Part shown: piece after piece, positions 6,469-27,315 of the stretch
Layout: each line of letters begins with the position of its first letter
How positions within the stretch are numbered: position 1 is the first letter of the stretch
Assembly (NCBI GenBank): GCA_031409275.1
Contig: JANNXA010000023.1
Location: 1-27,455, forward strand
DNA from: Planctomycetota bacterium
Lineage (GTDB): Bacteria; Planctomycetota; B15-G4; SIAN01
Direction of reading: 5' to 3'
DNA length: 27,455 bases
Notes under the pieces: model-generated
The model's database searches: none
Told to the model about the DNA's origin: nothing
What the model saw: the letters and a program-made list of their open reading frames with translations, nothing else
Program-made: the position numbers and the translations under genes

Positions 6469-7625
6469 GGCGGCTCCTTCTCAGGAGCGGCGCGCTGGTC
6501 GAGGAGTGCGCGGTCTGTCTCGACGAGGTGTTGCAGAGCCTCTACCGAAGGCAGCGCGACCTGGTAGCGAGAGACGAACAACTGGTGGTCGAGTCCGGCC
6601 GTCGCGTAGTGGACCTTGGTCTCGTCCTTGTCGCTGCACAGGATCAGTCCCACGGGCGGCTGGTCGCTGGCGCCGAGCATGTGGTCTTTCCACCACTGCA
6701 AATAAAAGTTCATCTGGCCGGCATCGCCGTGCGTGAACGAGCGCACCTTCAAGTCGATGAGCAGGTGGCAGCGCAGGACACGGTGATAGAAGACGAGGTC
6801 GATCCAGTCGTGCTCGTTGCCGACCGAGATTCGTTTCTGCCGTGCCTCGAAGCAGAAGCCGGTCCCGAGTTCGAGCAGGAACGCCTGCAGGTGATCGAGG
6901 AGAGCAGCCGCGAGATCGCTCTCGCGATACTGGGCGCGCTCCGCGAGGCCGGTGAACTCCAGCACGTACGGATCGCGGAGCTGGCTGGCGACCATCGGCT
7001 GTTCCGCCGCCGATCCGGTCCGCGCCGCGGCGATCACGGCCTGCTTGTCGATCGACAGGCCGGTGCGCTCGTAGAGCGACGAGCCGATCTGCCGGCGGAG
7101 TTCGCGCAGCGACCAGGACGCGCCCAACGTCTCGTTTTCGTAGAAGGCGCGCTTCCAAGGGTCGTCGAGGCGGAGCAGCTCGACGACATGCGACCAGGTG
7201 AACCGGAAGACCGCCTCGGCAGGGAGCGGGGGCACCAGTCGCTCCGAGGATTTCCGCGACACCGTCGCGGAAATCTCCCCGGAGGCCGCGATCCGCCGCA
7301 ATTCCGGCGATGGCGGGAACTGCGGCAGTGACTGCGCGGTGATCACCGGGCCCACCTGCGGATACGTCCGGTAGAAACCGCGCATTCGCTCGAGGACGTC
7401 GGGGCTCGTCCCGCGTAACCCGGAGGTCTCCAGATCTGCGGACAGGCGCTTCAGCAACCCGGACCCGTAGGTCGCACGATCTGCACCGCGCTGCTCGAAC
7501 TCGACGATCCATCCGCCGATCAACCAATTCCGCACCAGCAGCGCTCGATGCACGGCTGCCACGGCGCTGCCCAAGGTCTGGCCGTGCAGGGTGGTGATGG
7601 TTGCGACGAGGTCGATGTAGTTCAC
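6465..7625 (-). CDS. DUF1016 / YhcG-family PD-(D/E)XK nuclease embedded in the cas operon
   Basis: Motifs NWLIGGWIVEFEQRGADRATYG, TWSHVVELL, WSLRELRRQIGSSLYER, RDPYVLEF, FLLELGTGFCFEARQKRI, IDLVFYHRVLRCHLLIDLK, GQMNFY and PVGLILC. Confidence 0.92.
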   Translation of the reverse strand: MNYIDLVATITTLHGQTLGSAVAAVHRALLVRNWLIGGWIVEFEQRGADRATYGSGLLKRLSADLETSGLRGTSPDVLERMRGFYRTYPQVGPVITAQSLPQFPPSPELRRIAASGEISATVSRKSSERLVPPLPAEAVFRFTWSHVVELLRLDDPWKRAFYENETLGASWSLRELRRQIGSSLYERTGLSIDKQAVIAAARTGSAAEQPMVASQLRDPYVLEFTGLAERAQYRESDLAAALLDHLQAFLLELGTGFCFEARQKRISVGNEHDWIDLVFYHRVLRCHLLIDLKVRSFTHGDAGQMNFYLQWWKDHMLGASDQPPVGLILCSDKDETKVHYATAGLDHQLFVSRYQVALPSVEALQHLVETDRALLDQRAAPEKEPP

Positions 7626-10348
7626 GGTTGTTCTGGCCCGACTAGGGGCAACAACGGGTCGGTGGTGGAAAGCTGCGATGCTCGGCGATCCGCGGCGATC
7701 AGTATCGCTTCGAGCCAGGCCAGTGCGCCTGGGCCGAAGCGTTCGACGAGGCCGAGCGTGCGTTCGCGCCAGCTGCGCCCGGTCAGTGGTGAGAGTCCGA
7801 GATTGGCCGGCTCGAGCGAAAGCGTCAGCGCCGGAAGCGGCGCAGACGACGCCTCCATGTCGAGCGATACGGTGGGCAGCTCATCGCCTTCGCGCACGCC
7901 GCGGATCGGCAGGCCGCGGCCATCACCTCGGTCGCGGTAGTCCTGGTCCTTCGGCGCGGCATGGAGCGCAACGCGAACCTTGCCATGGTGCGAGGCGACG
8001 AGGTAGGCGAGCAGATCGAACTCGTCCGCCGAGCAGTCGAGCACGGCTTGTTCGTGGCGTGTCGGTGTTCTTGCCAACGGAACATCGGGTGCCGGACAGC
8101 CCATCAGCGCCAACGCCTCGACCCACGGCCCGAGCAGCGCCGGGTGTCGCGGCTGATTCAGCCGCAGCACCGCGAAGAGCGCCAGCGTGCTCGCGAGCTC
8201 GTGGCGCAGGCCCGGCCGCAGATCCCGATCGTCGATGGTGCGATAAGACTTGGGCGGCCGCGGCCACGCAGCGGTGGGCGCCTTCGCCAGATCCTGGCGA
8301 TCCGGCCGATCCGACGAGCGGATCGCTCCCTGGAACGCCGGGTGCGCCTTGCCGAGGTCATGCCAGCGACCGGCGAGCGTCAGCAACTCGCGCAACCTCG
8401 GCGGCAGCCCGATGGTCGTCGCGATGGCCGCCGCCGCATCCGCGACCTCCGCGCCGTGGCATGCGATCGTCTTCCACGGTGACGCGCTCAGCTCGTCGCT
8501 GTCCGGGCTCTCGCCTGCCTGGAGAGCCGCTTCCGTCATGGAAGGGAGCTCGGCCATCGGCACGACCGGAACGACATCCTGCGAGTGCGGGTCGAATCCA
8601 CGCGCGATGGCGTAGCCGCCCGCATCGTTCGCGACGCACACCACGCGGCCGGGGGTGAGGTGATGCCGCTCGGCGACAACCCAGGTGCCGTCGAGCCAAT
8701 CCCATACCCAGGCTCGGATGCCAGGACGCAGCCTGGGCTTCGGCTTGCTCTTGCTCTCCTCGCCGCAGAGCCAGTCGCGCGCACGCAGGAAGGGCACCGC
8801 GCAGAGTTCTTCGCGCCGCGGAAGCCGGCGCTGCCCGGGAACGTGTCGCACACCCTTCCGGTCCCGGGCGATCTCGAGCCAGAAGACCTGGAGGTCGCGT
8901 TCATCTCCGTTGCGGATGAAGCGGCTGATGTCGAGGTCAGCCCCCGTGAGGTCGGGGGTGGTGTCAAACAGCTCATCGAACTCGCGGCGCAGCAGCAGGT
9001 GTCGCGGCGCATAGGGATAGAGGCGTCGACGCTCGGAATCGTCGAGCCCCTCCTCGAACGCCTCGAGCGCTGCGATGCCGACGTTGCCTTGCGCCATCAG
9101 GTTCTCGACGGTGCTCCAAGCCGCTTCGAGCTCGTCCGGGCGATAGGGGAGCGCCGCTGTTTCGTCGCGGCCGCGATCGACGACCACTACATGCCCCGCG
9201 CCTCCGTAACGGGCGCATCGTCCGAAGCGTTGCACGAGGCTCGGCCACGGGGCGAGTTCGCTGACCACGCGACCGGCCGAAATATCGACGCCGGCCTCGA
9301 CCACCTGCGTGGCCACGATGATGCGGTCGACTTCCGGCTTGCACGCCGAGCGGCTGAGGAAGCGCTCGCGCCATGCGATGCGCTCTGCAGGGCGGAACCG
9401 GCTATGCACCAGCTCGATCCCGCCCGTTCGACCCCGTGCTCGCAGCGCGTCGAAAGTGCTGCAAGCCCGGGCGACGGTATTGCAGATCACCAACGTGATG
9501 CGGCCCCACTCGCCGTCGGGAGTCGCCGCATGCTCGTCGAGGATGCGCTGAGCGAAGGTGCGATGGCCTTCGTCGCCGTTGCCGGGGATGCGCGCGTGCG
9601 CCAAGGACTTCCGGATCGAGCCGACCCCTCGGTCCCGATCGGGGCGTGCGACGACGGTCGGATTGCGGCGCCACTCGTCGTGGCGTGACGCAGTGTCGAC
9701 GCTCTTCAGCCATGCGTCTTGGAGCGTTGCGCTCATCCACCAGGTGTGACGCGGTCGCATCCCTTTGGTTGCGTCCGCATCGTGGTACGCCTGCAACTGT
9801 GCGCTGGTCGCGAGGCCGACATCCATCAATTGGGCTTCGTCCATGACCCAGAGCGCGTCATGGCTGAGCAGTCCGAACTCGAGCGGCCAGCGAGCTCGAC
9901 CGCTGGCGTAGCCGCGGTTCAGTGCGCGAGAGAGCAACATGTCCTGCGTGCCGATCAGGACGGCCGGCTCCTCGGGAGACAAGCTCCATTCGCCGCCTGG
10001 ATCGGCGCCGCCCATCAACAGATGCAGACCGACCTTTCCTGCGTGCGAACCCGACCCGTTCCAGAGCGTCCCGAGCGATTCCAAAGCACGGCGCGCCACA
10101 TCTTCGGTCTGCTCTGCGAGCACGCGCATTGGCAAGCACCAGACGAGGCGCCGCGGCCATTGCTCATCGGCGCGACAAAGGCGATGCCAGCTCCAAGCGG
10201 CCAACACGCCAAGGGTTTTCCCCATGCCGGTCGGAACGCGTACGAGCCTGCTGCGTGGGGCGGCTTCACTTGCAAGCGCTTCTTGCCACGCATGCGGCGC
10301 CAATGAGTCGCCGGCGAGCTGTCTGAACCAATCGCGGTAACCGGGCAT
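7622..10348 (-). CDS. cas3: Type I-G Cas3 helicase-nuclease with C-terminal HD domain
   Basis: Walker A VPTGMGKT, IGTQDMLLSRALNRGY, DEAQ box, SAT motif, ATQVVEAGVDIS and QRFGRCAR, followed by the HD domain (TIACH..HDLGKAHPAFQ, RHELAS, SHHGKVR, AADRRAS). Start re-assigned to ATG 10348, with RBS GAAGGGGG. 908 aa. Confidence 0.95.
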   Translation of the reverse strand: MPGYRDWFRQLAGDSLAPHAWQEALASEAAPRSRLVRVPTGMGKTLGVLAAWSWHRLCRADEQWPRRLVWCLPMRVLAEQTEDVARRALESLGTLWNGSGSHAGKVGLHLLMGGADPGGEWSLSPEEPAVLIGTQDMLLSRALNRGYASGRARWPLEFGLLSHDALWVMDEAQLMDVGLATSAQLQAYHDADATKGMRPRHTWWMSATLQDAWLKSVDTASRHDEWRRNPTVVARPDRDRGVGSIRKSLAHARIPGNGDEGHRTFAQRILDEHAATPDGEWGRITLVICNTVARACSTFDALRARGRTGGIELVHSRFRPAERIAWRERFLSRSACKPEVDRIIVATQVVEAGVDISAGRVVSELAPWPSLVQRFGRCARYGGAGHVVVVDRGRDETAALPYRPDELEAAWSTVENLMAQGNVGIAALEAFEEGLDDSERRRLYPYAPRHLLLRREFDELFDTTPDLTGADLDISRFIRNGDERDLQVFWLEIARDRKGVRHVPGQRRLPRREELCAVPFLRARDWLCGEESKSKPKPRLRPGIRAWVWDWLDGTWVVAERHHLTPGRVVCVANDAGGYAIARGFDPHSQDVVPVVPMAELPSMTEAALQAGESPDSDELSASPWKTIACHGAEVADAAAAIATTIGLPPRLRELLTLAGRWHDLGKAHPAFQGAIRSSDRPDRQDLAKAPTAAWPRPPKSYRTIDDRDLRPGLRHELASTLALFAVLRLNQPRHPALLGPWVEALALMGCPAPDVPLARTPTRHEQAVLDCSADEFDLLAYLVASHHGKVRVALHAAPKDQDYRDRGDGRGLPIRGVREGDELPTVSLDMEASSAPLPALTLSLEPANLGLSPLTGRSWRERTLGLVERFGPGALAWLEAILIAADRRASQLSTTDPLLPLVGPEQP

Positions 10349-10473
10349 CGGTCCCCCTTCGCGGCCGCAGATTGGAGCGAAGGGAGCACGTATCGCGCAA
10401 GGGAGTTCTGTGAACGCCAACACGGTCGAGTTTGATTCGACGACTTGCCGAAGAACGCTTCGGGGTACTGACC
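10349..10473. promoter_or_regulatory. Divergent control region between cas3 and cas4/cas1
   Basis: 125-bp gap between head-to-head starts. It contains the inverted repeats cccttcgc/gcgaaggg (10355-10384) and ccgaag/cttcgg (10448-10463). No -35/-10 boxes could be called. Confidence 0.5.
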
Positions 10474-12195
10474 ATGAACACGAACGGCGAGTCTCCGTCC
10501 GCTGCCCAAGAACTCCTTCCCGTCCGCATGCTGAACGAGTTCGCGTACTGCCCGCGGCTCTTCCACTTCGAACGGGTGGACGGGCTGTTCGCTGACAGCG
10601 CCGACACGGTCGAGGGGCGCTCCGTCCATCGGCGGGTGGACGCCGTTGAGGACGTCCTGCCTGAGCCAGACGGGGAGGCGCAGCCCGAGGTGGCGCGCTC
10701 GGTCCAGCTCGGGAGCGAGCGCCTCGGGCTGATCGCCAAGATCGACCTCGTCGAGGTCGATGGGGACGTGGCGGTGCCGATCGACACGAAGAAGGGGCGC
10801 GTGCCCGACATCCCCGAGCAGGCCTACGAGCCGGAACGGGTCCAGGTCTGCGCGCAGGGGTTGCTGCTGCGCGAGCATGGCTACCGCTGCGACCACGGCT
10901 TCCTCTACTTCGCGGGGTCGCGGCGCCGAGTCCGCGTCGAGCTGACGCCGGAACTCGAGGCGCGGACGCGCGAGCTTGCAGCGGCGGCGCGAGCGGCCGC
11001 ATTGCTCACGGCTCCACCGCCTCCCTTGATCGACAGCCCGAAGTGCCCGCGCTGTTCGCTCGTCGGCATCTGTCTGCCGGACGAAACGAACTTTCTGCGC
11101 GAGCGCGAGTCGGTCGAGCAGCCACCGGACTCTGCTGCGACCGCGACGACATCTCGCGAGCCGCGTCGCCTCATCCCGTCGCGCGACGACGCGCAGCCCG
11201 TCTACGTGCAGGGGCAGGGCTACTCCGTCACTCGATCGGGCGACGTCCTCGTCATCACGGACAAGGGCAAGAAGCTCCGCGAAGTCCTCGTGAAGGACAT
11301 CTCGCATCTGGCGATCTTCGGCAACAACCAGGTCACGACGCAGTTGCTGCAGACGTTGTGCGGTGCCGAGGTGCCGGTGACCTGGTTCTCGCACGGAGGC
11401 TGGTTCTACGGGATGCTCCAAGGCTTCGGACTGCGCAACGCCTTCGTTCGCCGCGAGCAGTTCAGGAAGGCCGACGACCCCCTGTTCTGCGTCCAGCTCG
11501 CTCGCGAGTTCGTGGCGGGGAAGATCAGCAACTGCCGGACGCTGCTGCAGCGCAACCACTCTGCGCCGCCCGAGGACGCCTTGCGCGACCTGAAGGAAGC
11601 AGTCGCGACCGCTCGCGAGGCGACGACGCTGGAGACGCTGCTGGGGATCGAGGGCAATGCGGCGCGGATCTACTTCGGATCGTTCCAGGCGATGCTGAAG
11701 CCGAAGGGCGCCGAAGCTGCGCCGGCCTTCGACTTCAACGGCCGCAACCGCCGCCCGCCGCGCGATCCCGTCAATGCGATGCTGTCGTTCGTCTACAGCC
11801 TGCTGTCGAAGGACTTCACCATCGCCTGCATGGCGGTCGGACTCGATCCCTACCTCGGCTTCTATCACCAGCCGCGCCACGGCCGACCCGCGCTCGCGCT
11901 CGACCTGATGGAGGAGTTCCGGCCGCTCGTCGGCGACTCCGTCGTCCTCACGCTCGTCAACAACGGCGAGGTGGTCGCCGACGACTTCGTGGTGACCGAA
12001 GCTGGTTGCGCGATGACGCCGGCAGCCCGCTCGAAGTTGATCGGCGCGTATGAGCGTCGCCTCGACTCGCTCGTGACGCACCCGGTCTTCGACTATCGCG
12101 CGAGCTACCGACGCATCTTCGAGATCCAGGCGCGCCTGCTGACGCGGGTGCTTCAGGGCGAGGTGCGCTCCTACCCGTCCTTCACGACCCGGTGA
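10474..12195 (+). CDS. cas1: Cas4-Cas1 fusion
   Basis: Cas4 part: MLNEFAYCPR, KIDLVE..IDTKKG, QVCAQGLLL and KCPRCSLVGICLPDE. Cas1 part: LLGIEGNAARIYF, RRPPRDPVNAMLSFVY and LALDLMEEFRP. Likely start is ATG 10474. Confidence 0.96.
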   Translation: MNTNGESPSAAQELLPVRMLNEFAYCPRLFHFERVDGLFADSADTVEGRSVHRRVDAVEDVLPEPDGEAQPEVARSVQLGSERLGLIAKIDLVEVDGDVAVPIDTKKGRVPDIPEQAYEPERVQVCAQGLLLREHGYRCDHGFLYFAGSRRRVRVELTPELEARTRELAAAARAAALLTAPPPPLIDSPKCPRCSLVGICLPDETNFLRERESVEQPPDSAATATTSREPRRLIPSRDDAQPVYVQGQGYSVTRSGDVLVITDKGKKLREVLVKDISHLAIFGNNQVTTQLLQTLCGAEVPVTWFSHGGWFYGMLQGFGLRNAFVRREQFRKADDPLFCVQLAREFVAGKISNCRTLLQRNHSAPPEDALRDLKEAVATAREATTLETLLGIEGNAARIYFGSFQAMLKPKGAEAAPAFDFNGRNRRPPRDPVNAMLSFVYSLLSKDFTIACMAVGLDPYLGFYHQPRHGRPALALDLMEEFRPLVGDSVVLTLVNNGEVVADDFVVTEAGCAMTPAARSKLIGAYERRLDSLVTHPVFDYRASYRRIFEIQARLLTRVLQGEVRSYPSFTTR

Positions 12196-12202
12196 GGCGG
12201 CC

Positions 12203-12496
12203 ATGCACCGCCGCTACGTCGTCACCTACGACATCTGCGATCCGAAGCGGCTGCGGCGGGTCTTCCAGGTGCTGCGCGGCTTCGGCGACCACCTGCAGCT
12301 GTCGGTGTTCGAGTGCCAGCTGAACACGGTCGAGCTGATCGAGCTGAAGGACGCGCTTCGCTCGGAGATCCAGGCCCACGAGGATCAGGTCCTGTTCATC
12401 GACCTCGGCGCCGTCCATCGCGAGCAGCTAATCACGGCGGTAACCTGCCTCGGCCGTCCGTACGGTCCTCGTTCCGAAGGTCCGGTCATCGTTTGA
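12203..12496 (+). CDS. cas2: Cas2
   Basis: YVVTYDICDPKRLRRVFQVLRGFGDHLQLSVFEC. 97 aa, immediately after cas1. Confidence 0.96.
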   Translation: MHRRYVVTYDICDPKRLRRVFQVLRGFGDHLQLSVFECQLNTVELIELKDALRSEIQAHEDQVLFIDLGAVHREQLITAVTCLGRPYGPRSEGPVIV

Positions 12497-12702
12497 CCCA
12501 GGAAGGAGATGGAGCTGATGATGCACTCGCGAGAGGTGGCGTGATGGACCCTCCTCAGGGAGCGCTCGAAAGCGCAAACCATTGCTCTTTCACAACTTAC
12601 GAACTCGCACACGATCCCGGCTCGGTTGGACAGCTCGAGAACCCGTCGCGCTCGCATTCGCGCTCGCTACTCCTTGCCTCGCAGCAGGTTGTGGCGGTCG
12701 GA
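12497..12702 (+). promoter_or_regulatory. CRISPR leader
   Basis: About 205 bp of non-coding sequence between cas2 and the first repeat. The degenerate repeat is at the opposite end of the array, which fixes the orientation. Confidence 0.75.
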
Positions 12703-14545
12703 CTCTCCGCGGTCTTCGGATCGCGGCCCCGTTGAAGCAGCAGCTCCTCGTAGATCGAGGCGTCGGCGATGTTCTCTCCGCGGTCTTCGGATCGCGGCCC
12801 CGTTGAAGCAACCATGAGGGGGGTGGCGAGGCGTTCGTGGCGATCCTCTCCGCGGTCTTCGGATCGCGGCCCCGTTGAAGCGTGGCTGACGTCGCGCCCT
12901 CGATCTCCGCCTGGACCTCTCCGCGGTCTTCGGATCGCGGCCCCGTTGAAGCGGTCCAAAAACCGGCACCACCGTGATCGTCGCCTTCCTCTCCGCGGTC
13001 TTCGGATCGCGGCCCCGTTGAAGCGGCCGGCGACCCGCGGTGTCCCGTCACTGTCGGCCAGCTCTCCGCGGTCTTCGGATCGCGGCCCCGTTGAAGCGAC
13101 CCAAGCGCCGCCGAACGACCACGCCGACGAGCGCTCTCCGCGGTCTTCGGATCGCGGCCCCGTTGAAGCGGCTCGAATGGCACCAACGGCGGCGTGATCA
13201 CCGTGCTCTCCGCGGTCTTCGGATCGCGGCCCCGTTGAAGCAGTCGAATCCTCGAAGAAGCCTCGCCGGAACGCTTCCTCTCCGCGGTCTTCGGATCGCG
13301 GCCCCGTTGAAGCACGTGCGAGCGCGTGCCGACACTGGATCGCGTGGCACCTCTCCGCGGTCTTCGGATCGCGGCCCCGTTGAAGCACCGTCCCCTAGTT
13401 GGACCTGCCCCGAAGGGCGAGTCTCTCCGCGGTCTTCGGATCGCGGCCCCGTTGAAGCCATGAGGCGATGGCGAACGGCAAGTTCAACGAGGTCCTCTCC
13501 GCGGTCTTCGGATCGCGGCCCCGTTGAAGCTCGGCGGATCGGTCAGGGTGCGCCATGCAGGGCGGACTCTCCGCGGTCTTCGGATCGCGGCCCCGTTGAA
13601 GCCGTGCGGGGATGCTGCGGCCACCACCACACCAGCGAGCTCTCCGCGGTCTTCGGATCGCGGCCCCGTTGAAGCATCGCCTCCAACTCGAAGTGGGTGA
13701 TCTCGTGCTCGAACTCTCCGCGGTCTTCGGATCGCGGCCCCGTTGAAGCTAGAAGTTGTTACTTGACTACATGCTGGGCATAGCCTCTCTCCGCGGTCTT
13801 CGGATCGCGGCCCCGTTGAAGCTCTTTCAGCAGCTCATCCTGCACCCCGGGGGCAAGCAGCTCTCCGCGGTCTTCGGATCGCGGCCCCGTTGAAGCAGGA
13901 CCAGCGCCGACGAAGCGCGCGCGGTGCTGCAGCCTCTCCGCGGTCTTCGGATCGCGGCCCCGTTGAAGCTTCCTGCGTGACGAGGTGAGCCGCAACAAGG
14001 CGCTCGCTCTCCGCGGTCTTCGGATCGCGGCCCCGTTGAAGCTGGATTCGTCGCCACGCTCGTTGAGGGCGGGGAGGGCCTCTCCGCGGTCTTCGGATCG
14101 CGGCCCCGTTGAAGCCGGATGAGAGCCTTGCGCTTTGACATCGCATCTTCCTCTCCGCGGTCTTCGGATCGCGGCCCCGTTGAAGCGATGGTGGCTTCGT
14201 GCACTCTTCCATCTTGAGGCGACTCTCCGCGGTCTTCGGATCGCGGCCCCGTTGAAGCGGTCGCTGATGAGCGAAAGCGACGGCGTTGACGGTCTCTCCG
14301 CGGTCTTCGGATCGCGGCCCCGTTGAAGCACGCCGCGCTCCGCGCAGTAGCGCAGGACATCGGCCTCTCCGCGGTCTTCGGATCGCGGCCCCGTTGAAGC
14401 CGCCTGAGGTGGCGCGATGAGTACCCGAGCCGAGCAGCTCTCCGCGGTCTTCGGATCGCGGCCCCGTTGAAGCGGACCCGACGACGTTCCGCCAGCGGGC
14501 GAAGAAGTTCTCTCCGCGGTCTTCGGATCGCGGCTCGGTTGACAC
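12703..14545 (+). CRISPR. Type I-G CRISPR array: 26 repeats of 36 bp and 25 spacers of 35-38 bp
   Basis: Repeat CTCTCCGCGGTCTTCGGATCGCGGCCCCGTTGAAGC occurs as 25 identical copies, plus a degenerate terminal copy at 14510-14545 (..GGCTCGGTTGACAC). Counted by hand. Confidence 0.98.
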
Positions 14546-14607
14546 TGACCCACTCGCGCAGCAGCGCGTTAAATCGCGCGCACGTGCGCTCCGCCGCCCT
14601 CGCCCGC

Positions 14608-17082: not shown

Positions 17083-18570
17083 ATGCAGTACGGCTTCGTG
17101 ATCGATCACCGGCGCTGCATCGGGTGCCACGCCTGCACGGTCGCGTGCAAGGCGGAGAACGACGTCCCGCTCGGCAACTTCCGGACGTGGGTCAAGTACG
17201 TCGAGAAGGGGACCTTCCCCGAGGTGAAGCGCCACTTCGCGGTGCTGCGCTGCAACCACTGCACCGATGCGCCGTGCGTGACGATCTGCCCGGTGAACGC
17301 GCTCGACAAGCGCAAGGACGGCATCGTCGATCTCGATCGCGACGTCTGCATCGGTTGCCGCGCCTGCATGCAGGCTTGCCCCTACGACGCGCTCGCGCTG
17401 AACGAAGCGACCGGCGCGGTCGAGAAATGCCACTACTGCGCCCATCGAGTGGAGAAGGGGCTGCAACCGGCCTGTGTCATCGTCTGCCCCGAGCAGGCGA
17501 TCATCAGCGGCGACTTCCACGATCCGGCCAGCAAGCCGAGTCGCCTGATGGCGGAGCAGCCGTCGATCCGCCGCCGCACCGAGCAGAACACCGGTCCCAA
17601 CGTCGCCTACATCGGAGTCGAGCCGCTGGCGCTCGAGCCGGGCGCGATCGAGCGCCCCGCCACCTACCTCTGGAGCGAGCGGCCGCCGCAAAAGCCGGAG
17701 ATGTGGCCGCTCACGCTCCCGCTGGTCCCGAACGCGCGCGTCACGCTGGACGCGGGCCACAAGGTCGAGTGGGGCGGTGGAGTCGCGGCCTACCTCGTGA
17801 CCAAGGGGATCGCGGCCGGCGCGGCGATGCTCGCACCGTTCGTCGCGGCGCTGGGGTTGACCGGCTTCGCCGCCGATTGGCTCCCGGAGATCGCAGCGCT
17901 CTTCTTCGTGACGCTCACCACCTTCCTGCTGGTCGAGGATCTCAAGCGCCCCAAGCTCTTCCTCACGCTGCTGACGCGTGGCAATCGCAAGAGCTGGCTC
18001 GTGAAGGGGGCGTGGATCCTGATCGCCTTCTCGATCACGGTCAGCGCGACGCTGGCCGCGCGCTTCTTTCGCATCGATGCGGCGATCGCGCCGCTGCGCT
18101 GGGTGAACGCCGTGCTGGCGCTCGGCGTCGCCGGCTACACCGCATTCCTCTTCGCGCAGTGCGAGGGGCGCGACCTGTGGCAGGGGAAGCTCCTGCTGCC
18201 GCATCTGCTCGCGCAGGCGCTCTTCTGCGGCGCGGCGCTCTTCCTGCCGTTTGCGGCGGCAGCGCGCGAGGGGCTGCAGGCCGTCCTCGCCATCGGCGTC
18301 GCGGTGCACCTGCTCTGCTGCCTTGCCGAGCGCTGGATGAAGCACGCGACGGCGAATGCGCGCCAGGCCGCGGCATTCCTCGATGTGGTGAAGTTCGCCG
18401 GAAAGATCCCCGCGTTCCGCTTCGGAATGGTGGTGGTCGGCGCGCTGCTGCTGCCGCTCAGCAACGGCCCGGCCGCGATGCTCTTCGTCGTCCCGCTCCT
18501 GGCGTGGTGGGGGCTCTTCCTGTGGGAATGGGCCTACGTGCGAGCGGGGCAGCTGCCGCCGTTGTCGTGA
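17083..18570 (+). CDS. 4Fe-4S dicluster (NrfC/PsrB-like) protein fused to an NrfD/PsrC-like membrane anchor
   Basis: Cys motifs CIGCHACTVAC, CNHCTDAPC, CIGCRACMQAC and CHYC..PACVIVC, followed by about 8 hydrophobic helices with LVEDLKRP..SWLVKGAWIL. Confidence 0.9.
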   Translation: MQYGFVIDHRRCIGCHACTVACKAENDVPLGNFRTWVKYVEKGTFPEVKRHFAVLRCNHCTDAPCVTICPVNALDKRKDGIVDLDRDVCIGCRACMQACPYDALALNEATGAVEKCHYCAHRVEKGLQPACVIVCPEQAIISGDFHDPASKPSRLMAEQPSIRRRTEQNTGPNVAYIGVEPLALEPGAIERPATYLWSERPPQKPEMWPLTLPLVPNARVTLDAGHKVEWGGGVAAYLVTKGIAAGAAMLAPFVAALGLTGFAADWLPEIAALFFVTLTTFLLVEDLKRPKLFLTLLTRGNRKSWLVKGAWILIAFSITVSATLAARFFRIDAAIAPLRWVNAVLALGVAGYTAFLFAQCEGRDLWQGKLLLPHLLAQALFCGAALFLPFAAAAREGLQAVLAIGVAVHLLCCLAERWMKHATANARQAAAFLDVVKFAGKIPAFRFGMVVVGALLLPLSNGPAAMLFVVPLLAWWGLFLWEWAYVRAGQLPPLS

Positions 18571-20369: not shown

Positions 20370-20566
20370 GGTTCGCACTCCTCTGGTCGCTTGCGGGCGA
20401 TGCCGTCGCCGCGCGTTGGACCGGTTGGTGTCGTGCCGCGGCGCTCCAGTCAAGCGGGGCGGGAACGGGGGCGCCGTGCGGCGCGGCGCCGCCGCCGGAA
20501 GCCGCGGCCAGCGACCGGCGGGCCGACTCTCGCCGCAGGGTCGGCGACCCGCTACGGTGCCGCACC

Positions 20567-23350
20567 ATGCGCAGCCACGATCCCGAAGAGATGACGGTCA
20601 CGCCGCTCGAGAACTTCCCGCCGCTCGACCAGTGGGATGACTGGGTCGAGTACGAGTCGAAGAGCTGGCCGAAGAAGGTCGAGAAGCACTACATGCTGCT
20701 TCCGACCATCTGCTTCAACTGCGAGGCGGCGTGCGGTCTGGTGGCGTACGTCGACAAGCAGGATCTGTCGATCCGCAAGCTCGAAGGCAATCCGTATCAC
20801 CCCGGCTCGCGCGGCCGCAACTGCGCGAAGGGGCCGGCGACGCTGAACCAGGTCGAGGACCCGGGCCGGATCCTCTATCCGATGAAGCGGGTCGGGCCGC
20901 GCGGCGGCGGCAAGTTCGAGCGCACGACGTGGGACGAGGTGCTCGACGTCTTCGCCAAGAAGATCCGCGCGGCGCTCGTCGAAGGGCGCAAGACCGAAGT
21001 GATGTACCACGTCGGCCGACCCGGACACGACGGCTACATGGATCGCGTGCTGCAGGCGTGGGGCGTCGACGGCCACAACAGCCACACCAACGTCTGCAGC
21101 GCGGCCGCGCGGCTCGGCTACGCGCTGTGGCAGGGCGTCGATCGACCCTCGCCCGACCACGCCAACGCGAAGTTCATCCTGCTCTTGTCGAGCCACCTGG
21201 AGACGGGCCACTACTTCAACCCGCACGCGCAGCGGATCATCGACGGGAAGATGGCGGGCGCGAAGCTGTGCGCCATCGACATCCGCCTGTCGAACACGGC
21301 CTCGATGGCCGACTACTGGATGGCGCCGAATCCCGGCAGCGAGGCGTTCCTGCTGCTCGCCTTCGCGCACGTGATCCTCGAAGAGGGGCTGATCGATCGG
21401 AAGTTCGTCGACGAGTGGACCAACTGGCCCGAGTACATGGCGGCGCTGGCGCCCGACGCGCCGGCGACCTTCGAGCAGTTCCTGGTCGAGTTGAAGCGCC
21501 ACTACGCGCAATACACCCCCGACGCGGCGGCGAAGGAGTGTGGCGTCGCGAAGGAGCAGATCGTCGCCGTCGCGCGCGAGATCGGGAAGGCGGGCCACGG
21601 CTTCGCGAGCCACGTCTGGCGCAACGCGGCGTCGGGCAACCGCGGCGGCTGGCAGGTCGCGCGCTGCCTCCATTTCCTGTCGGTGCTGGTCGGTGCGGTG
21701 GGTTCCGAAGGCGGCACCAACTTGAACACCGCCGACAAGTTCGTGCCGGCGCCGTTCGCCAAGCCACCGCCGCAGAAAGTGTGGAACGAGCTGCTCTACC
21801 CGCGCGAGTGGCCGCTCTCCCACCACGAGCTCTCCTACCTGCTGCCGCATCTGCTGAAGGACGGCCGCGGCAAGCTCGCCGCCTACTTCACGCGCGTCTA
21901 CAACCCGGTCTGGACCAACCCCGACGGGATGATGTGGGAGCAGGTGCTGCGCGACGAGAAGCTGGTCGAGTTGCACGCCGCGCTGACGCCGACCTGGAGC
22001 GAGACGGCGCAGTACGCCGACTACGTGCTGCCGATGGGGCTCGGTGCCGAGCGCCACGACCTGATGTCGCAGGAGACGCACGCTGGCCGCTGGATCGGCT
22101 TCCGGCAGCCGGTTCGCCGCGCCGCGATGGCGAAGCTCGGCAAGAAGGTCGAGTGGACCTGGCAGGCCAACCCCGGCGAGGTGTGGGAAGAGGACGAGTT
22201 CTGGATCGCGCTGTCATGGCGCATCGATCCCGACGGGTCGCTCGGCGTGCGGCAGTGGTTCGAGTCGCCCTACCGCAAGGGCGAGCGGATCACCATCGAC
22301 GAGTACTACGGCTGGATCTTCGAGAACACCGTGCCGGGGCTGCCCGAGGCGGCGAAGGCGATGGGCCTCACGCCGCTCGAGTACATGCGCAAGTTCGGGG
22401 CGTTCGAGATCAAGGGCAGCACCTACGACACCTTCAAGAAGCCGCTCGCGGAGAAGGAGCGGGCCGGCACGAGCGACGATGCTGCGAAGCGCATCGTGGT
22501 GAAAGACGGCAAGGCGGTCGGCGTGCTGGCCGAGGGGGCGGCGCGCGTCGGGCTCGCCACACCCAGCCGCCGTTTCGAGCTCTACAGCAAGACGATGGCC
22601 GATTGGGGCTGGCCCGAGCAGGCGCTGCCCGGCTACCTCGAGAGCCACGTGCACCCGAAGCACCTCGATCCGGCGCACGGCGACTACGTCCTGGTGCCGA
22701 CCTTCCGCCTGCCCACGCTGATCCACACGCGCAGCGCGAACGCGAAGTGGCTTTACGAACTGTCGAACACCAACCCGGTCTGGATCCACCCGACCGATGC
22801 GAAGCGGCTCGGCCTCGAGACGCTCGACCTCGTGCGCGTCGCGACGCGCATCGGCCACTTCATCAACAAGACCTGGGTGACCGAGGGGGTGCGGCCCGGT
22901 GTCATCGCCTGCAGCCACCATCTCGGCCGTTGGCGACTGTTCGACGAGGGCGGCACCGATCGCTGGGCCAGCGCGCTGGTGAAGCGCGAAGAGCTCTCGC
23001 CCGGCCGCTTCCGCTTCCGTCGCGTGAAGGGCATCGCGCCGTGGAAGTCGAGCGACAAGGACAGCTCGCGCGTCTGGTGGACCGACGGCGGCGTGCACCA
23101 GAACCTCACCTTCCCGGTGCAGCCCGACCCGATCAGCGGCATGCATTGCTGGCACCAGCGCGTCCACGTCGAGAAGGCGCGCGCCGGCGATGCCTACGGC
23201 GACGTCGAAGTCGACACCGTGAAGTCGATGGAGGTCTTCCGCGAGTGGATGGCGCTCGCCCGCCCCGGACCGGGACCTGACCACCTGCGGCGACCGCTCT
23301 GGTTCAACCGCGCGGTGAAGCCGGCGCCGGAGGCGTACAAGTTCCCGTGA
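20567..23350 (+). CDS. Mo-bisPGD (DMSO reductase family) oxidoreductase catalytic subunit, no Tat signal
   Basis: 4Fe-4S motif CFNCEAACG..GSRGRNCAKG, RILYPMKR, probable Mo ligand segment HNSHTNVCS, SETAQYADYVLP, and a C-terminal dinucleotide-binding domain (WIHPTDA, TEGVRPG). Start is ATG 20567 or ATG 20591. Confidence 0.92.
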   Translation: MRSHDPEEMTVTPLENFPPLDQWDDWVEYESKSWPKKVEKHYMLLPTICFNCEAACGLVAYVDKQDLSIRKLEGNPYHPGSRGRNCAKGPATLNQVEDPGRILYPMKRVGPRGGGKFERTTWDEVLDVFAKKIRAALVEGRKTEVMYHVGRPGHDGYMDRVLQAWGVDGHNSHTNVCSAAARLGYALWQGVDRPSPDHANAKFILLLSSHLETGHYFNPHAQRIIDGKMAGAKLCAIDIRLSNTASMADYWMAPNPGSEAFLLLAFAHVILEEGLIDRKFVDEWTNWPEYMAALAPDAPATFEQFLVELKRHYAQYTPDAAAKECGVAKEQIVAVAREIGKAGHGFASHVWRNAASGNRGGWQVARCLHFLSVLVGAVGSEGGTNLNTADKFVPAPFAKPPPQKVWNELLYPREWPLSHHELSYLLPHLLKDGRGKLAAYFTRVYNPVWTNPDGMMWEQVLRDEKLVELHAALTPTWSETAQYADYVLPMGLGAERHDLMSQETHAGRWIGFRQPVRRAAMAKLGKKVEWTWQANPGEVWEEDEFWIALSWRIDPDGSLGVRQWFESPYRKGERITIDEYYGWIFENTVPGLPEAAKAMGLTPLEYMRKFGAFEIKGSTYDTFKKPLAEKERAGTSDDAAKRIVVKDGKAVGVLAEGAARVGLATPSRRFELYSKTMADWGWPEQALPGYLESHVHPKHLDPAHGDYVLVPTFRLPTLIHTRSANAKWLYELSNTNPVWIHPTDAKRLGLETLDLVRVATRIGHFINKTWVTEGVRPGVIACSHHLGRWRLFDEGGTDRWASALVKREELSPGRFRFRRVKGIAPWKSSDKDSSRVWWTDGGVHQNLTFPVQPDPISGMHCWHQRVHVEKARAGDAYGDVEVDTVKSMEVFREWMALARPGPGPDHLRRPLWFNRAVKPAPEAYKFP

Positions 23351-23488: not shown

Positions 23489-24901
23489 TTGCGCTCCATG
23501 CCTTCCCACCGCGTGGAGCGAGCCGTGGCAACGATCGAGCAGACTCGCTGGTTCGTGGCGCGAATGGGCGCGATGTGGCTGGCGTGCGCGCCGTTGCTGT
23601 TCGCACGGCCGGCGCCGCAGTCGGACGAGGTCCTCGAGATCCCGGCACGACGCGAGCGGCTCGACGAGCTGCGACCGTCGCCGCGAACCGTGCTGCGCAT
23701 CGAGGTCGACCAACTCCTGCCCGACGGCGAGTGGCAGCGCCCATCAAGCGGCCGGGCGCGCGTCGAGTTCTTCGCGCGCGGGTTCGTCTACATTCACGAG
23801 CCGTTCCTGCGTGACGGCGTGGCCGAGACGACGCTGCCGGCGATTTGCGAGGCCCTTGCGCCAACGAGCGTCTTCTGGCGCTTCTCGGTTCGCGACGACT
23901 CGAACGAGCTGCTCGGACGCGACTCGGTCTGGCAAACCATCGCCGCGACGCGCCGTCGTGAAGTGCGGGTCGTGCCGGCGCCGCCGACTCGGATCGAAGT
24001 GGTCGCTGCGGAAAGCGGCGCCCCGCTCGATCGCGAGCGTGATCGATGGAGCTGCAAGGTCATGGAGCCGCGCCGGGATTGCGACCAGTGTGGTGAGCGG
24101 AGTTCATCGGCACGGCTTGTGACGATCGGCGACTCGTGGTTCGAAGTGGTCGGCCTCCCGGCTGACGCGATCGCCGGCGAGCTCACTCTCGCGATCTCCG
24201 CTCCAGGTCGGGTCGCGCGAAGCGTGACCGTCGATGCGCGCGCTGGCGGTCGCCGCGAAGTGCGTCTCTGGCCGCGAACGACGATCGAGATCCTCGTCGA
24301 TCGCCGGCCGCTCGAAGGGCACTTCGCCACTTGTATCACCGTCGAGGCGGTGGACGGCGCCATCTGCTGGAGCCAGATGATCGAGCTCCTGAGCACTGCG
24401 AATATGGTCGCCGACGTTCCAGGCTGCGCGCTGATGCTGTTCGATGAGTTTGGGGTTGAGCTCGGACGACTTCCGCAAGCCGCGAGCTCGTCGAGCGGCG
24501 ATGTCGTTCTACCTCGCCAAGTCGAACTCGCCGCCGGCCGCCTCCGTTGGGGGGGAGGTTTGTCTCGTGGCGGTTCGCCATCGAGACGGGGATGCCGTCA
24601 TAGCGACGTCGAGCGCCCGGTCTCGACGGTGCGCATCGAGCTGCGTGACGGTGCGACGTGCGTGCCGTGCGCTTCCTGGCTGCGGTTCATCGACGAAGAG
24701 CCGGAGGTCGCGGGGATTCGGGCTGATGGAGCGGCGGCGATCGCGCAAATGGGGGCGCCGGGTCCCTACACGCTGGTATTCGACCCGATCGACGGTTTCG
24801 CGCCGATTGCGCCGATCTACGTCGACGTGCCTGGAGTGCCTTCCGGGCAAGTCGTCGCGCTCGCGCCGATCGTGATCGCGCTGCGCCGTGAACAGCGCTG
24901 A
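23489..24901 (+). CDS. Hypothetical exported beta-rich protein
   Basis: Long ORF with coding-like GC3 bias and a hydrophobic segment MWLACAPLLFA, so the true start may be about 75 bp downstream. No family recognised. Confidence 0.55.
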   Translation: MRSMPSHRVERAVATIEQTRWFVARMGAMWLACAPLLFARPAPQSDEVLEIPARRERLDELRPSPRTVLRIEVDQLLPDGEWQRPSSGRARVEFFARGFVYIHEPFLRDGVAETTLPAICEALAPTSVFWRFSVRDDSNELLGRDSVWQTIAATRRREVRVVPAPPTRIEVVAAESGAPLDRERDRWSCKVMEPRRDCDQCGERSSSARLVTIGDSWFEVVGLPADAIAGELTLAISAPGRVARSVTVDARAGGRREVRLWPRTTIEILVDRRPLEGHFATCITVEAVDGAICWSQMIELLSTANMVADVPGCALMLFDEFGVELGRLPQAASSSSGDVVLPRQVELAAGRLRWGGGLSRGGSPSRRGCRHSDVERPVSTVRIELRDGATCVPCASWLRFIDEEPEVAGIRADGAAAIAQMGAPGPYTLVFDPIDGFAPIAPIYVDVPGVPSGQVVALAPIVIALRREQR

Positions 24902-24915
24902 GCGGTGCCGCGGCC

Positions 24916-26145
24916 TCACTGTTCCTTCGCGAGCCCAGCCTCCAGCATCCGCTGGTACTTCCGTGTCCACTCGTCGGGGTCGAAGCTCTTGAACAGCTCT
25001 TCGACGGCGAGCTGCGCGATGACCTTGCCTTCCGCAGTCACCACCATCGAATCGACCGGGTAGGTGTAGGCGGCGAGGATCGCTCGCGCGACGACGCGCG
25101 CCTCATCGGTGGCAAAGGCCGCGTCGATGGCGGCGCGCGAGACGAACTGCGGCCGCACGATCCAGGCGTTGACGAACTCCTCGTTCAGCTGCTCGATCAC
25201 TTCCAGGTTCGAGAGCGGACCCGCTCTCAGCGTCTTGCCCGAGCCTCAGCAACTCTCGTCATCGAGCGTGCCGAACAGCGCCACCACGTGCAGCGGCTTG
25301 CCGCTCTGCGTCGCCTCTTCCACCGCCGCCTCGAAGGGCAGCCAGTCGACTTTGGCGAAGTCGTAGAAGCAGCGCGCCAACAGCGTCGCCGCGCGTTCCT
25401 CGTCGATCTGCGCGTTCCACGGCTCGCGGGTCACGATCTGCGCGAGCGTGTCGGTGTGGTCGTTCGCGGCGCCGGTGAGTCCGAGTCGCGGCACGTAGCC
25501 GATGTCCGCCTCGACCATCGCAGGCTTGCCGTCGCCACTCGGCTGCGCCCAGTTGAGGTCGACATTGCTGTCGCGCGCTGGAACGCCGAGTTCAAGCGCC
25601 AGCGGCCGGTTGCTGACGCGCTCGAAGACGATGCGTCCCGCGAGCTGCGCTGGCGTGTACCACGAGCCGATGTCATCGAGCGGGAAGTCGGCATGGAGGC
25701 GCACCTGCACGACGTCGAGCTGTTCGTTGCGTGCCACGAGCAGCGCGAAGCCACCGTCCGTTTGACACGCCAGGTGCATCTCGAGCTGCGCGGTCGCGTG
25801 GAGCTGGCGCACGATCGGCAGGACACGCTCAGGATCGAGCCGCCAGCTCGTTCCGACGGTCGCCGTCGCGGGCGGCGCGAAACCGGAGAGCTCCGCGTCG
25901 CTCCACGTGTGCTGCCGCTCCGCGGGCGCCAGCGTGGCCAGCCGCGGCCAGCGCTGCTGGAAGCCGTAGGCTGAACGCGCGATCGGCTCCCAGACGGCCG
26001 TCACGACGAGTCCGTCGCCCTTCGCGGTCGCTGCGGTGGCGATCTCACCGGGAGTCCACGCGATGACTCCGACGCCCATCAGCCACGCGCTGTAGCGGAA
26101 TCGCTTGGCGAACGAAGTTGCTTTTGTGGTGGCAGTCATCGGCAC
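24916..26145 (-). CDS. Selenoprotein N (SELENON)-like selenoprotein; in-frame TGA at 25246-25248 read as Sec
   Basis: ORFs 25246-26145 and 24916-25200 are in the same frame. Readthrough gives KPLHVVALFGTLDDESC-U-GSGKTLRAGPLSNLEVIEQLNEEFVNAW..YTYPVD, matching the eukaryotic SelN signature ..GALDDQSCUGSGRTLR... A SECIS-like hairpin follows the TGA. About 409 aa, with an alternative ATG start at 26139. Confidence 0.88.
25211..25228 (-). promoter_or_regulatory. Bacterial SECIS-like hairpin of the SelN-like gene
   Basis: mRNA sense GAGAGCG-GGUC-CGCUCUC: a perfect 7-bp stem with a GGUC loop, 24 nt between the UGA and the loop. Confidence 0.8.
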
Positions 26146-26379: not shown

Positions 26380-27315
26380 ATGAGAGCATTCATCGTGATC
26401 CCGGCACTGTCGCTGCTCCTCTCCGGCGCGGCACCGCCACAAGACGAGGTGGAGCTGCGATTCAGCGACTGCGACGCGCAGCGGCCCGCACTGTTGACGG
26501 GCGTCGGCGATCTCGTCGAGATCATGCTCCGTGGCCCGCCCGTCGATCCGCTCGTGCTGCGTGCGACGATGAAGGTCGAGGAGCGCGAGGTCGCGATCTA
26601 CCTGCCCAAGGCGCCGCTCTACTCGCGCGAGAACCGTGGCAGCGACTCGACCGGAATGGAGAACAGCAGCACGCTCCTCTCGATCGACGACGACGGGGAT
26701 GGCGTGCTGACCGAGCGCGAGTCGTGGCACGCGAACCTGCCGCTGCGGATCGGCGACACGATGTTCGACGTCGTCGAGCTGGCGGCCGATGGTCGTCGCA
26801 TGGTGGTGCGCCGTTCGACGGAGCCGCTCTCGGGCATCGTCGTCGGCCGTCGCGTCCCGCCGTTCGAGCTGCGGACCGCGTCGGGCCAGACCTTCAGCGA
26901 CGCTTCGCTGGCGGGCAAACCCTTCGTGCTCGACCTCTGGTCCGTGACCTGACACAACTGCATCGAAGAGTTCCCCCTGGTTCAGGGGGTTCAACGCAAA
27001 TGGGGCGAGCGACTCCTTCCGGTGATCCTGGTCGCCGTCGACCGCGGCTTTGGCAGCAAGGATGCGGAGTTCGTGCCGCAGGCAGCGCGCATCCTCGAAG
27101 CCCACGGTGTCGCATGGCCGAACACAATCGCCGAAAACGGTTTCGAGACGACCAAGCGCCGGTTCAACCTCGACGGCTACACGAAGGTGCTCGTCGATCC
27201 GCACGGCATCGTCCGGGCGGTGGGCATGCACGGCACCGAGCTGGCCGAGAAGGTCGAGGCCGTGATGCGGGAGTGGGCGAACGAGCGGCGGGGCAAGCAC
27301 GATGGAGCCGAGTAA
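26380..27315 (+). CDS. Exported TlpA/ResA-like thioredoxin-fold selenoprotein (UxxC); in-frame TGA at 26950-26952 read as Sec
   Basis: ORFs 26380-26952 and 27022-27315 are in the same frame. Readthrough gives VGRRVPPFELRTASGQTFSDASLAGKPFVLDLWSVT-U-HNCIEEFPLV..ILVAVD..TKVLVDPHGIVR, so U occupies the first Cys of the TlpA WxxxCxxC motif. N-terminal signal peptide. 311 aa. Confidence 0.88.
26973..26989 (+). promoter_or_regulatory. Bacterial SECIS-like hairpin of the TlpA-like gene
   Basis: CCCCCUG-GUU-CAGGGGG: a perfect 7-bp stem with a loop starting GU, 27 nt between the UGA and the loop. Confidence 0.75.

What the first reader, a model, noticed from the sequence alone, without database searches (positions are those of the whole stretch)
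24916..26145. Hidden bacterial homologue of eukaryotic selenoprotein N, with Sec retained
Seen in sequence: two annotated ORFs join across a single TGA to give LFGTLDDESC-U-GSGKTLR. Established, recalled from memory: vertebrate SELENON, the ER protein mutated in rigid-spine muscular dystrophy, carries LWGALDDQSC-U-GSGRTLR. Upstream blocks also line up: HADFPL..WYTPAQLAGRI..VPARDSNVDLNW..EADIGYVPRL versus HAEFQL..WFSPAQFTGHI..VPNHRSLNVDMEW..EVDIGYIPQM. Inference: this is a near full-length SelN core with an N-terminal export or anchor segment and no EF-hand. SelN is usually treated as a eukaryotic selenoprotein of unclear catalytic function, and standard gene callers would split this gene into two hypotheticals. 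I cannot tell whether this particular bacterial lineage has been reported before.
Basis: partly seen in the sequence, partly recalled or inferred. Interest (0 to 1): 0.93.

Follow-up and report, generated by a model that had tools for sequence, protein, structure and literature searches.

The report
Bacterial selenoprotein N relative, selenocysteine kept
This bacterial gene is a clear relative of selenoprotein N, the poorly understood human muscle-disease protein, and its internal stop codon is very likely read as selenocysteine, giving a small, likely exported redox enzyme that would be easier to study than the human one.

Summary
Confirmed. One minus-strand gene (26139-24916) has an in-frame TGA at 25246-25248. 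Both sides align to animal proteins named selenoprotein N. The genome has selA, selB, selD and tRNA-Sec. 80 of 80 related genome loci have TGA here with an open frame beyond; Cys forms exist; a downstream hairpin is frozen at silent codon positions. The model shows a beta-sheet domain of no known fold plus a DsbH/ERp18-like thioredoxin domain, with Sec at the first-Cys position of CxxC (46, 56, 99, 103). The residue of the commonest patient variant, G315S, is conserved. Likely an exported selenol disulfide reductase; activity untested. The family is large in Planctomycetota and Poribacteria; animals form one separate clade. It is absent from the 2026 prokaryotic inventory and NCBIfam, but I recall an unverified 2017 thesis on a Poribacteria member, and this scan found the family before in at least 7 other genomes. 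New variant of a known kind; interest 0.62.

The parts
24916..26139 (-). SelN-like gene, 407 aa when TGA 298 is read as Sec (ATG 26139; an in-frame GTG at 26145 is an alternative start)
26029..26139 (-). N-terminal segment (about residues 1-37), basic then hydrophobic, low model confidence; likely signal peptide (borderline in this copy)
   Evidence: hydropathy peak 1.79 here; 82 of 92 homologues reach 1.8 versus 3 and 5 of 92 in internal control stretches; 22 of 92 have a lipobox-like motif versus 0
25366..26010 (-). SelN-specific beta-sheet domain (residues 44-258), shared with animal SELENON; holds near-invariant G129, R147, H149, P163, G168, P187, N192
   Evidence: pLDDT 96; best Z 5.1, no clear match
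24919..25362 (-). Thioredoxin-fold domain (about residues 260-407), DsbH/YyaL/ERp18/AGR-like; Cys297-Sec298, Gly301 at the resolving-Cys position, Pro361 at the usual cis-Pro position
   Evidence: (Z 13.5-10.7, rmsd 2.0-3.8, 106-122 aligned)
25246..25248 (-). In-frame TGA, predicted selenocysteine 298
   Evidence: 80 of 80 loci TGA; Cys forms
25211..25228 (-). bSECIS-like hairpin: 7-bp stem, GGUC loop 24 nt after the UGA
   Evidence: model criteria from PMC13188914
26380..27315 (+). Divergent neighbour: second predicted selenoprotein, exported TlpA/AhpC-TSA type, TGA at 26950-26952 (UxxC), hairpin 26973-26989; possible but unproven partner

Best explanation
The gene encodes a bacterial member of the selenoprotein N family, a likely exported thioredoxin-fold enzyme whose UGA is very likely read as selenocysteine and which is predicted to reduce disulfides or other oxidised thiols on envelope proteins. 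Shown: homology on both sides of the TGA, conservation of the TGA and of the hairpin, presence of selA/B/C/D. Inferred: SelB binds the GGUC hairpin and inserts Sec; the protein is exported; Sec298, at the first-Cys position of the thioredoxin CxxC motif, attacks the substrate; as Gly301 replaces the usual resolving Cys, the neighbouring Cys297 or an outside partner resolves the intermediate; electrons come from a DsbD/TlpA relay (the genome has a Sec-type DsbD and 7 Sec-type TlpA-like domains). The beta-sheet domain would select the client; the client is unknown. Confidence in family and Sec about 0.95; in the reductase mechanism about 0.55.
For: Homology. Sec: machinery; TGA in 80 of 80 loci found with a pattern that ends before the codon, frame open 43-534 codons beyond with G[ST]GK-like sequence; Cys at the same site in 11 of 11 aligned Cys-form proteins; silent-site freeze in the hairpin (Ala GCG 78 of 78, Gly GGT 77 of 77, Pro CCG 75 of 76, Leu CTC 79 of 81) against varied codons upstream in the same loci (Gly 49/17/11/3 of 80) and the gene's only AGA codon; 88.8% of 161 cells paired, 0 of 500 shuffles, best slid control 67.7%; SelD and the neighbour have a like hairpin. 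Fold and site: 46, 52, 56; HMM alignment puts the Sec opposite the first Cys of CHWC in 3ira (103, E 0.008). Export: 105. Relay: AhpC/TSA tails fused in 5 of 8 long C-terminal parts tested, 40 of 81 loci have a long tail; Sec-type DsbD.
Against: No activity, expression or Se-labelling data. Folding energy of the region is not unusual (z 0.35-0.53) and a hairpin of this pattern follows 3,327 of 56,579 TGAs in the genome. Covariation is thin (4 cells; slid controls give 2-7) and 64 of 80 loci are Poribacteria. selA is common in the phylum anyway (291 of 401), and 4 of 28 distinct carrier genomes lacked a full selA hit (incomplete assemblies). This copy's signal segment is borderline (1.79). No TlpA-like gene beside SelN in 25 non-Poribacteria loci, and the fused tails have lost the first Cys of CxxC in 39 of 40. 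Cys297 is not kept in several related thioredoxin-only families, and Pro361 is Ser in one Poribacteria clade.
Confidence: 0.6

Rival explanations
1. Sec is inserted, but the protein is a peroxide- or small-thiol-dependent monothiol enzyme (peroxidase or glutaredoxin-like) rather than a protein disulfide reductase.
For: No Cys at the resolving position; fused AhpC/TSA-type tails with one Cys left; reviews say the role of Sec in SELENON remains enigmatic (PMC12936836).
Against: Closest folds are DsbH/DsbD-gamma/ERp18-type disulfide proteins, not peroxiredoxins or GPx; a large extra domain suggests a macromolecular or specific client (inference).
Confidence: 0.2
2. The Cys-Sec pair is a sensor or metal/metalloid-binding site that switches what the beta-sheet domain binds; the protein is a regulator or scavenger, not a catalyst.
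For: Some homologues are fused to ECF sigma factors (P0007, P0096); AGR2/3 and UAS domains among the fold matches are mainly non-catalytic (recalled); domain-only and motif-deleted copies occur (L092, L094, L095).
Against: Sigma fusions are 2 of the 19 proteins scanned and carry varied C-terminal cargo in these phyla (recalled); Sec is usually catalytic (PMC13188914).
Confidence: 0.17
3. The TGA is a true stop or a lesion: two separate proteins or a pseudogene.
For: Databases list the 297-aa half as a protein; the local fold energy is ordinary.
Against: The stop would cut one thioredoxin domain at its active site; TGA, never TAA or TAG, in 80 of 80 loci; Cys forms are continuous; reads agree.
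Confidence: 0.02

Closest known systems
Animal selenoprotein N (SELENON/SEPN1)
   Same: Both domains in the same order, 25-30% identity over about 280 aa, same Cys-Sec-Gly site, shared invariant residues of the beta-sheet domain, oxidising-compartment location (ER lumen versus predicted periplasm), an RNA hairpin just 3' of the UGA (SRE in animals, PMC8704476 and PMC12936836 passages).
   Different: 407 versus 590 aa; no EF-hand, no type II membrane anchor, shorter loops; in-frame bacterial SECIS instead of a 3'-UTR SECIS; no SERCA client; separate clade in the tree.
Poribacteria SelN-like proteins
   Same: Same core, TGA and hairpin; L032 has the extra C-terminal AhpC/TSA domain I recall from the thesis.
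   Different: 30-36% identity; this copy is single, has no tail, and lies among Planctomycetota sequences; holders of the DNA are freshwater-sediment runs of one study.
DsbH / YyaL (DUF255, PF03190) / ERp18 / AGR2-3 thioredoxin-like domains
   Same: Fold of the C-terminal domain (Z 10.7-13.5) and position of the reactive residue.
   Different: 13-21% identity, UxxG with a preceding Cys instead of CxxC, and an added beta-sheet domain.
Thioredoxin reductase C-terminal GCUG motif
   Same: Adjacent Cys-Sec pair, the comparison made in PMC12839072.
   Different: Here the pair starts a helix inside a thioredoxin fold; no FAD/NADPH domain (no Pfam hit).

Membership tests
Selenoprotein N family | Sequence homology on both sides of the Sec site | tested here: met
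Selenoprotein N family | SCUG motif with UGA-encoded Sec | tested here: met
   S-C-TGA-G; motif defined in PMC12839072; incorporation itself not measured
Selenoprotein N family | Thioredoxin-like domain carrying the motif | tested here: met
   predicted model
Animal SELENON proper | EF-hand | tested here: not met
   pattern flags 7 of 11 named animal proteins and no prokaryote-type row, this one included; no room before the core domain. The stricter pattern failed on the animal controls and is not used
Animal SELENON proper | Type II membrane anchor in the ER, glycosylation, SERCA regulation | not testable with these tools
   bacterial protein; N-terminus looks like a signal peptide
Animal SELENON proper | Falls inside the animal clade | tested here: not met
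   animals 100/100 as own clade (107); joining this protein's trio to them p-AU 0.043 (112), a modest rejection
Bacterial selenoprotein (SelB/bSECIS route) | selA, selB, selC, selD in the genome | tested here: met
   all three proteins over the curated cut-offs
Bacterial selenoprotein (SelB/bSECIS route) | Hairpin with 3-9 nt loop, G in first two loop positions, 16-37 nt after UGA | tested here: met
   7-bp stem, GGUC loop, 24 nt (8, 76); the energy limit of the model was not computed for the hairpin alone
Bacterial selenoprotein (SelB/bSECIS route) | Cys homologues at the UGA | tested here: met
   TGC codon in L129 (76)
Bacterial selenoprotein (SelB/bSECIS route) | Se shown in the protein | not testable with these tools
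   needs labelling or MS
CxxC disulfide reductases (DsbH/TlpA type) | Resolving Cys three residues after the nucleophile | tested here: not met
   Gly in 81 of 81 TGA sequences; works like one at best
Catalogued prokaryotic selenoprotein families | Hit to an NCBIfam or Pfam model, or a row in the 2026 inventory | tested here: not met
   0 hits at E 0.1; no SelN row in Table 1 of PMC13188914 as displayed

The most novel reading that the evidence does not exclude
Selenoprotein N began as a bacterial exported selenoenzyme, one branch of a large uncatalogued superfamily of G-x-L-D-x(3-5)-Sec thioredoxin domains; eukaryotes took the two-domain core from bacteria and added the membrane anchor and EF-hand, and the SRE hairpin behind the animal UGA is a relic of the bacterial in-frame SECIS. 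The bacterial forms, with natural Cys variants, would then be direct models for the disease protein's catalytic core. Not excluded: prokaryote-type diversity far exceeds the animal clade in my sample and thioredoxin-only sisters were seen in bacteria. Not shown: the tree has no root, the sample came from a bacterial query, and I could not compare the SRE sequence.
Probability: 0.3. Interest if true: 0.85.

Novelty: new variant of a known kind. Interest (0 to 1): 0.62.

Why it matters
The chemistry of SELENON is an open question (PMC12936836: function and role of Sec 'remains enigmatic'), and no solved structure matched by sequence at E below 0.001. A 40-kDa, non-glycosylated, likely soluble homologue, and natural Cys forms that need no recoding, make structure, redox potential and client trapping practical. 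Gly168 corresponds to human Gly315, site of the commonest patient variant (PMC7664282), and is Gly in 135 of 143 prokaryote-type sequences, so the beta-sheet domain of unknown fold can be probed with patient variants. For annotation, a whole family is cut in two by gene callers and missing from the current inventory.

Tried and rejected
Pfam, NCBIfam and PDB sequence searches with the protein: no hit; profile versus PDB: best E 0.008. Fold of the beta-sheet domain: no Foldseek match at E 0.001, best VIA Z 5.1, no named Atlas cluster; this does not show a new fold. Conserved gene neighbourhood: none across lineages; only the nearest locus L007 shares the Mo-oxidoreductase neighbour. TlpA neighbour as conserved partner: 0 of 25 non-Poribacteria loci, several short. 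Control for the hairpin in Cys-form genes: first metagenome scan found nothing, second gave 2 loci, only one a Cys form, which keeps part of the hairpin sequence: inconclusive. Genome-wide hairpin scan: too unspecific alone. Expression: no RNA holder listed. Sponge-symbiont transfer to animals: animals plus two Poribacteria rows rejected, p-AU 0.004, but their sister row P0096 was left outside the constraint, which favours rejection. Not all patient sites are conserved: the Arg262 and Arg268 columns are mostly Gly and His, the Trp453 column mostly Phe (92). Literature: searches showed no paper on a bacterial SelN in the listings; searches did not confirm the variants G273E, H293R, N340I, which I recall. 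Not held: PMC12013261, PMC7409585, PMC1142574, PMC2909032. The BSepDB supplement was cut when stored and the database itself was not seen. Promoter scan: nothing. No complex prediction was run.

Full report
Observation. The minus-strand frame is open from 26145 to 24916 except for one TGA at 25246-25248. Read as Sec from ATG 26139 it gives 407 residues. Assembled contigs of public runs agree with the TGA: one of depth 17 that may be the source, and one from a second sample of the same study with no difference over 24900-25306 (4 of 5 listed runs were laid).

Homology. A search of 1.84 billion representatives gave 326 hits at E 0.001; among the 150 shown are proteins that sources name selenoprotein N or SEPN1 in hagfish, a calcareous sponge, scallop, locusts and a sea spider, plus EF-hand proteins of wombat, sea anemone and tunicate (30 of the hits were looked up). 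Each half aligns separately and beats all 300 shuffles in 20 of 20 tests. A profile of 11 named animal sequences finds only this gene in the genome. A profile of prokaryote-type sequences hits all 11 at E 4e-74 to 5e-52, with a weaker second match upstream in 7 of them. Identity is 25-30%.

Selenocysteine. The genome (92.9% complete) has selA, selB, selD with its own TGA, and tRNA-Sec. A scan of GTDB genomes with a pattern ending before the codon matched 100 stretches, confirmed 97 and kept 80: 64 titled Poribacteria, 13 Planctomycetota, 3 unnamed bacteria. All 80 have TGA next and an open frame beyond. Of the 150 library hits 123 end at the preceding Cys, 5 read CC, 5 pass otherwise, 17 lack the site. 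A 7-bp hairpin with a GGUC loop lies 24 nt after the UGA, within the consensus model (PMC13188914). Alone it means little: fold energy is ordinary and 3,327 of 56,579 TGAs have such a pattern. What counts is that silent positions in it are fixed while those of invariant residues upstream vary in the same loci, with G-U wobble changes and compensated pairs in L008 and L110. On 23 chosen sequences 88.8% of cells pair, but covariation is slight; 4 of them use a shifted or different hairpin. Of 28 distinct carrier genomes among the 40 searched, 24 have selA over the cut-off, 2 have pieces and 2 none; the phylum background is 291 of 401, so this adds little.

Anatomy. The model is confident from residue 40 (mean pLDDT 91.4). 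Residues 260-407 form a thioredoxin fold closest to a Bacteroides DsbD-like domain, Thermus thioredoxin, AGR3, DsbH and DUF255 domains (Z 13.5-10.7; Foldseek). A profile alignment to 3ira sets Sec298 against the first Cys of CHWC and Gly301 against the second; Pro361 precedes the next strand as the cis-Pro does (role recalled). So the SCUG motif is a thioredoxin active site with a neighbouring Cys, not the flexible tail of thioredoxin reductase. Residues 44-258 fold as a beta-sheet domain (pLDDT 96) without a clear match. The N-terminus looks like a signal peptide in most homologues. No EF-hand.

Patient sites. Setting the hagfish Gly of the conserved block to 315 reproduces the human numbers Arg262, Arg268 and Gly360 given in PMC8639696. 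Gly315 maps to Gly168, Gly in 135 of 143 prokaryote-type rows, where only 18 of 254 columns reach 90%; G315S was the commonest variant in a 60-patient cohort (PMC7664282). Arg469 is Arg in 76 of 81 and Arg466 is Lys in 79 of 81 TGA sequences; Arg262, Arg268 and Trp453 are not conserved. Columns 273, 293 and 340, which I recall as patient sites without a source, are 136, 139 and 142 of 143.

Family and history. In 401 genomes of the window's phylum, 10 carry the two-domain gene with one TGA, this one included; only 5 candidates per genome were scored; among 41 close relatives 6 do. The nearest named relatives are Planctomycetota. In a 165-row tree of the pre-Sec region and a 49-row subset, animals form one clade (100/100) on a long branch, and this protein nests among Planctomycetota rows. 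Joining animals to this protein's trio or to Poribacteria is rejected at p-AU 0.043 and 0.004, so neither contamination nor a recent transfer explains it. Most deep-branching rows have no taxon label, P0123 and P0096 were grouped by look, the C-terminal half was left out, and there is no root. PMC7016017 places SelN's emergence at the base of animals (passages) while PMC7539508 reports it in a few algae (passages); neither passage mentions bacteria.

Context. The neighbourhood is not conserved. The divergent neighbour is a second predicted selenoprotein of TlpA type; 7 of 9 TlpA-like domains found in the genome have TGA in the active site, and a DsbD has UxxC. Many Poribacteria copies carry an AhpC/TSA tail. 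These suggest, without showing, a periplasmic reducing relay.

Mechanism. Most likely an exported selenol disulfide reductase acting on a client chosen by the beta-sheet domain, resolved by Cys297 or a partner and recharged through DsbD/TlpA (0.55-0.6). Rivals: monothiol peroxidase or glutaredoxin-like enzyme (0.2), sensor or metal binder (0.17), true stop (0.02).

Novelty. No SelN row in Table 1 of the 2026 inventory (PMC13188914, parts 2-4 read), no mention in deep-Sep (PMC12013277, term search only) or BSepDB (PMC13326102, passages and one truncated supplement), no NCBIfam model, and no paper in searches (listings only). Against novelty: I recall a 2017 thesis that expressed and crystallised a Poribacteria SelN; theses are outside the library. 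An Atlas cluster already joins eukaryote and Poribacteria members. This scan noted the family in at least 7 other genomes and a genome-wide note mentions a SelN relative in this one. Other papers were seen as passages: PMC12839072 (also section 3), PMC8967691, PMC8639696, PMC7664282, PMC12936836, PMC8704476. Verdict: real, a new variant of a known kind, interest 0.62.

Noticed in passing
window 26380-27315 (+): Second hidden selenoprotein: exported TlpA/AhpC-TSA protein, WSVT-U-HNC, with a GUU-loop hairpin 27 nt after the UGA, the same loop and spacing as in this genome's selD.
   Followed up: partly
L111-L128 (for example L111:1018-2016, L116:580-2130, L125:721-1842): Proteins with a SelN-type thioredoxin domain but no beta-sheet domain; 17 of 18 loci have TGA at the aligned site, 1 has Cys. 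None of 8 tested reaches an NCBIfam cut-off; 1 of 8 passes Pfam DUF255. Likely several uncatalogued selenoprotein families.
   Followed up: partly
L131:135-2714 (-), G000:C51: DsbD with Sec in the C-terminal thioredoxin domain (UxxC).
   Followed up: partly
G000 contigs C7, C9, C16, C27, C28, C33, C34, C43, C47, C50, C51: By eye about 15 of 76 listed TGA contexts are thioredoxin-type UxxC sites: a selenoprotein-rich genome.
   Followed up: partly
L092, L091, L094, L095: Homologues with the Sec segment deleted (L092) or the beta-sheet domain alone; may be real variants or assembly faults.
   Followed up: no
Poribacteria loci such as L032, L027, L021: Fused AhpC/TSA tails have lost the first Cys of CxxC in 39 of 40 long tails; several genomes hold two or more paralogues.
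   Followed up: partly
window 1572-14600: Type I-G CRISPR-Cas locus (cas5/6g, cas7g, cas8g, cas3g, cas2g by PADLOC) with an array and a PDC-S02/PD-DExK gene inserted between cas3 and cas8; the cas4-cas1-like ORF 10432-12195 had no PADLOC hit.
   Followed up: partly
window 17083-18570 and 20402-23350 (+): Molybdopterin oxidoreductase and a 4Fe-4S/NrfD fusion, below all NCBIfam cut-offs (best PhsA, DmsA, TtrB), separated by an oppositely oriented repeat-rich ORF.
   Followed up: no
L007:1033-2301 (-): Bacterial serpin upstream of the nearest relative's SelN gene.
   Followed up: no
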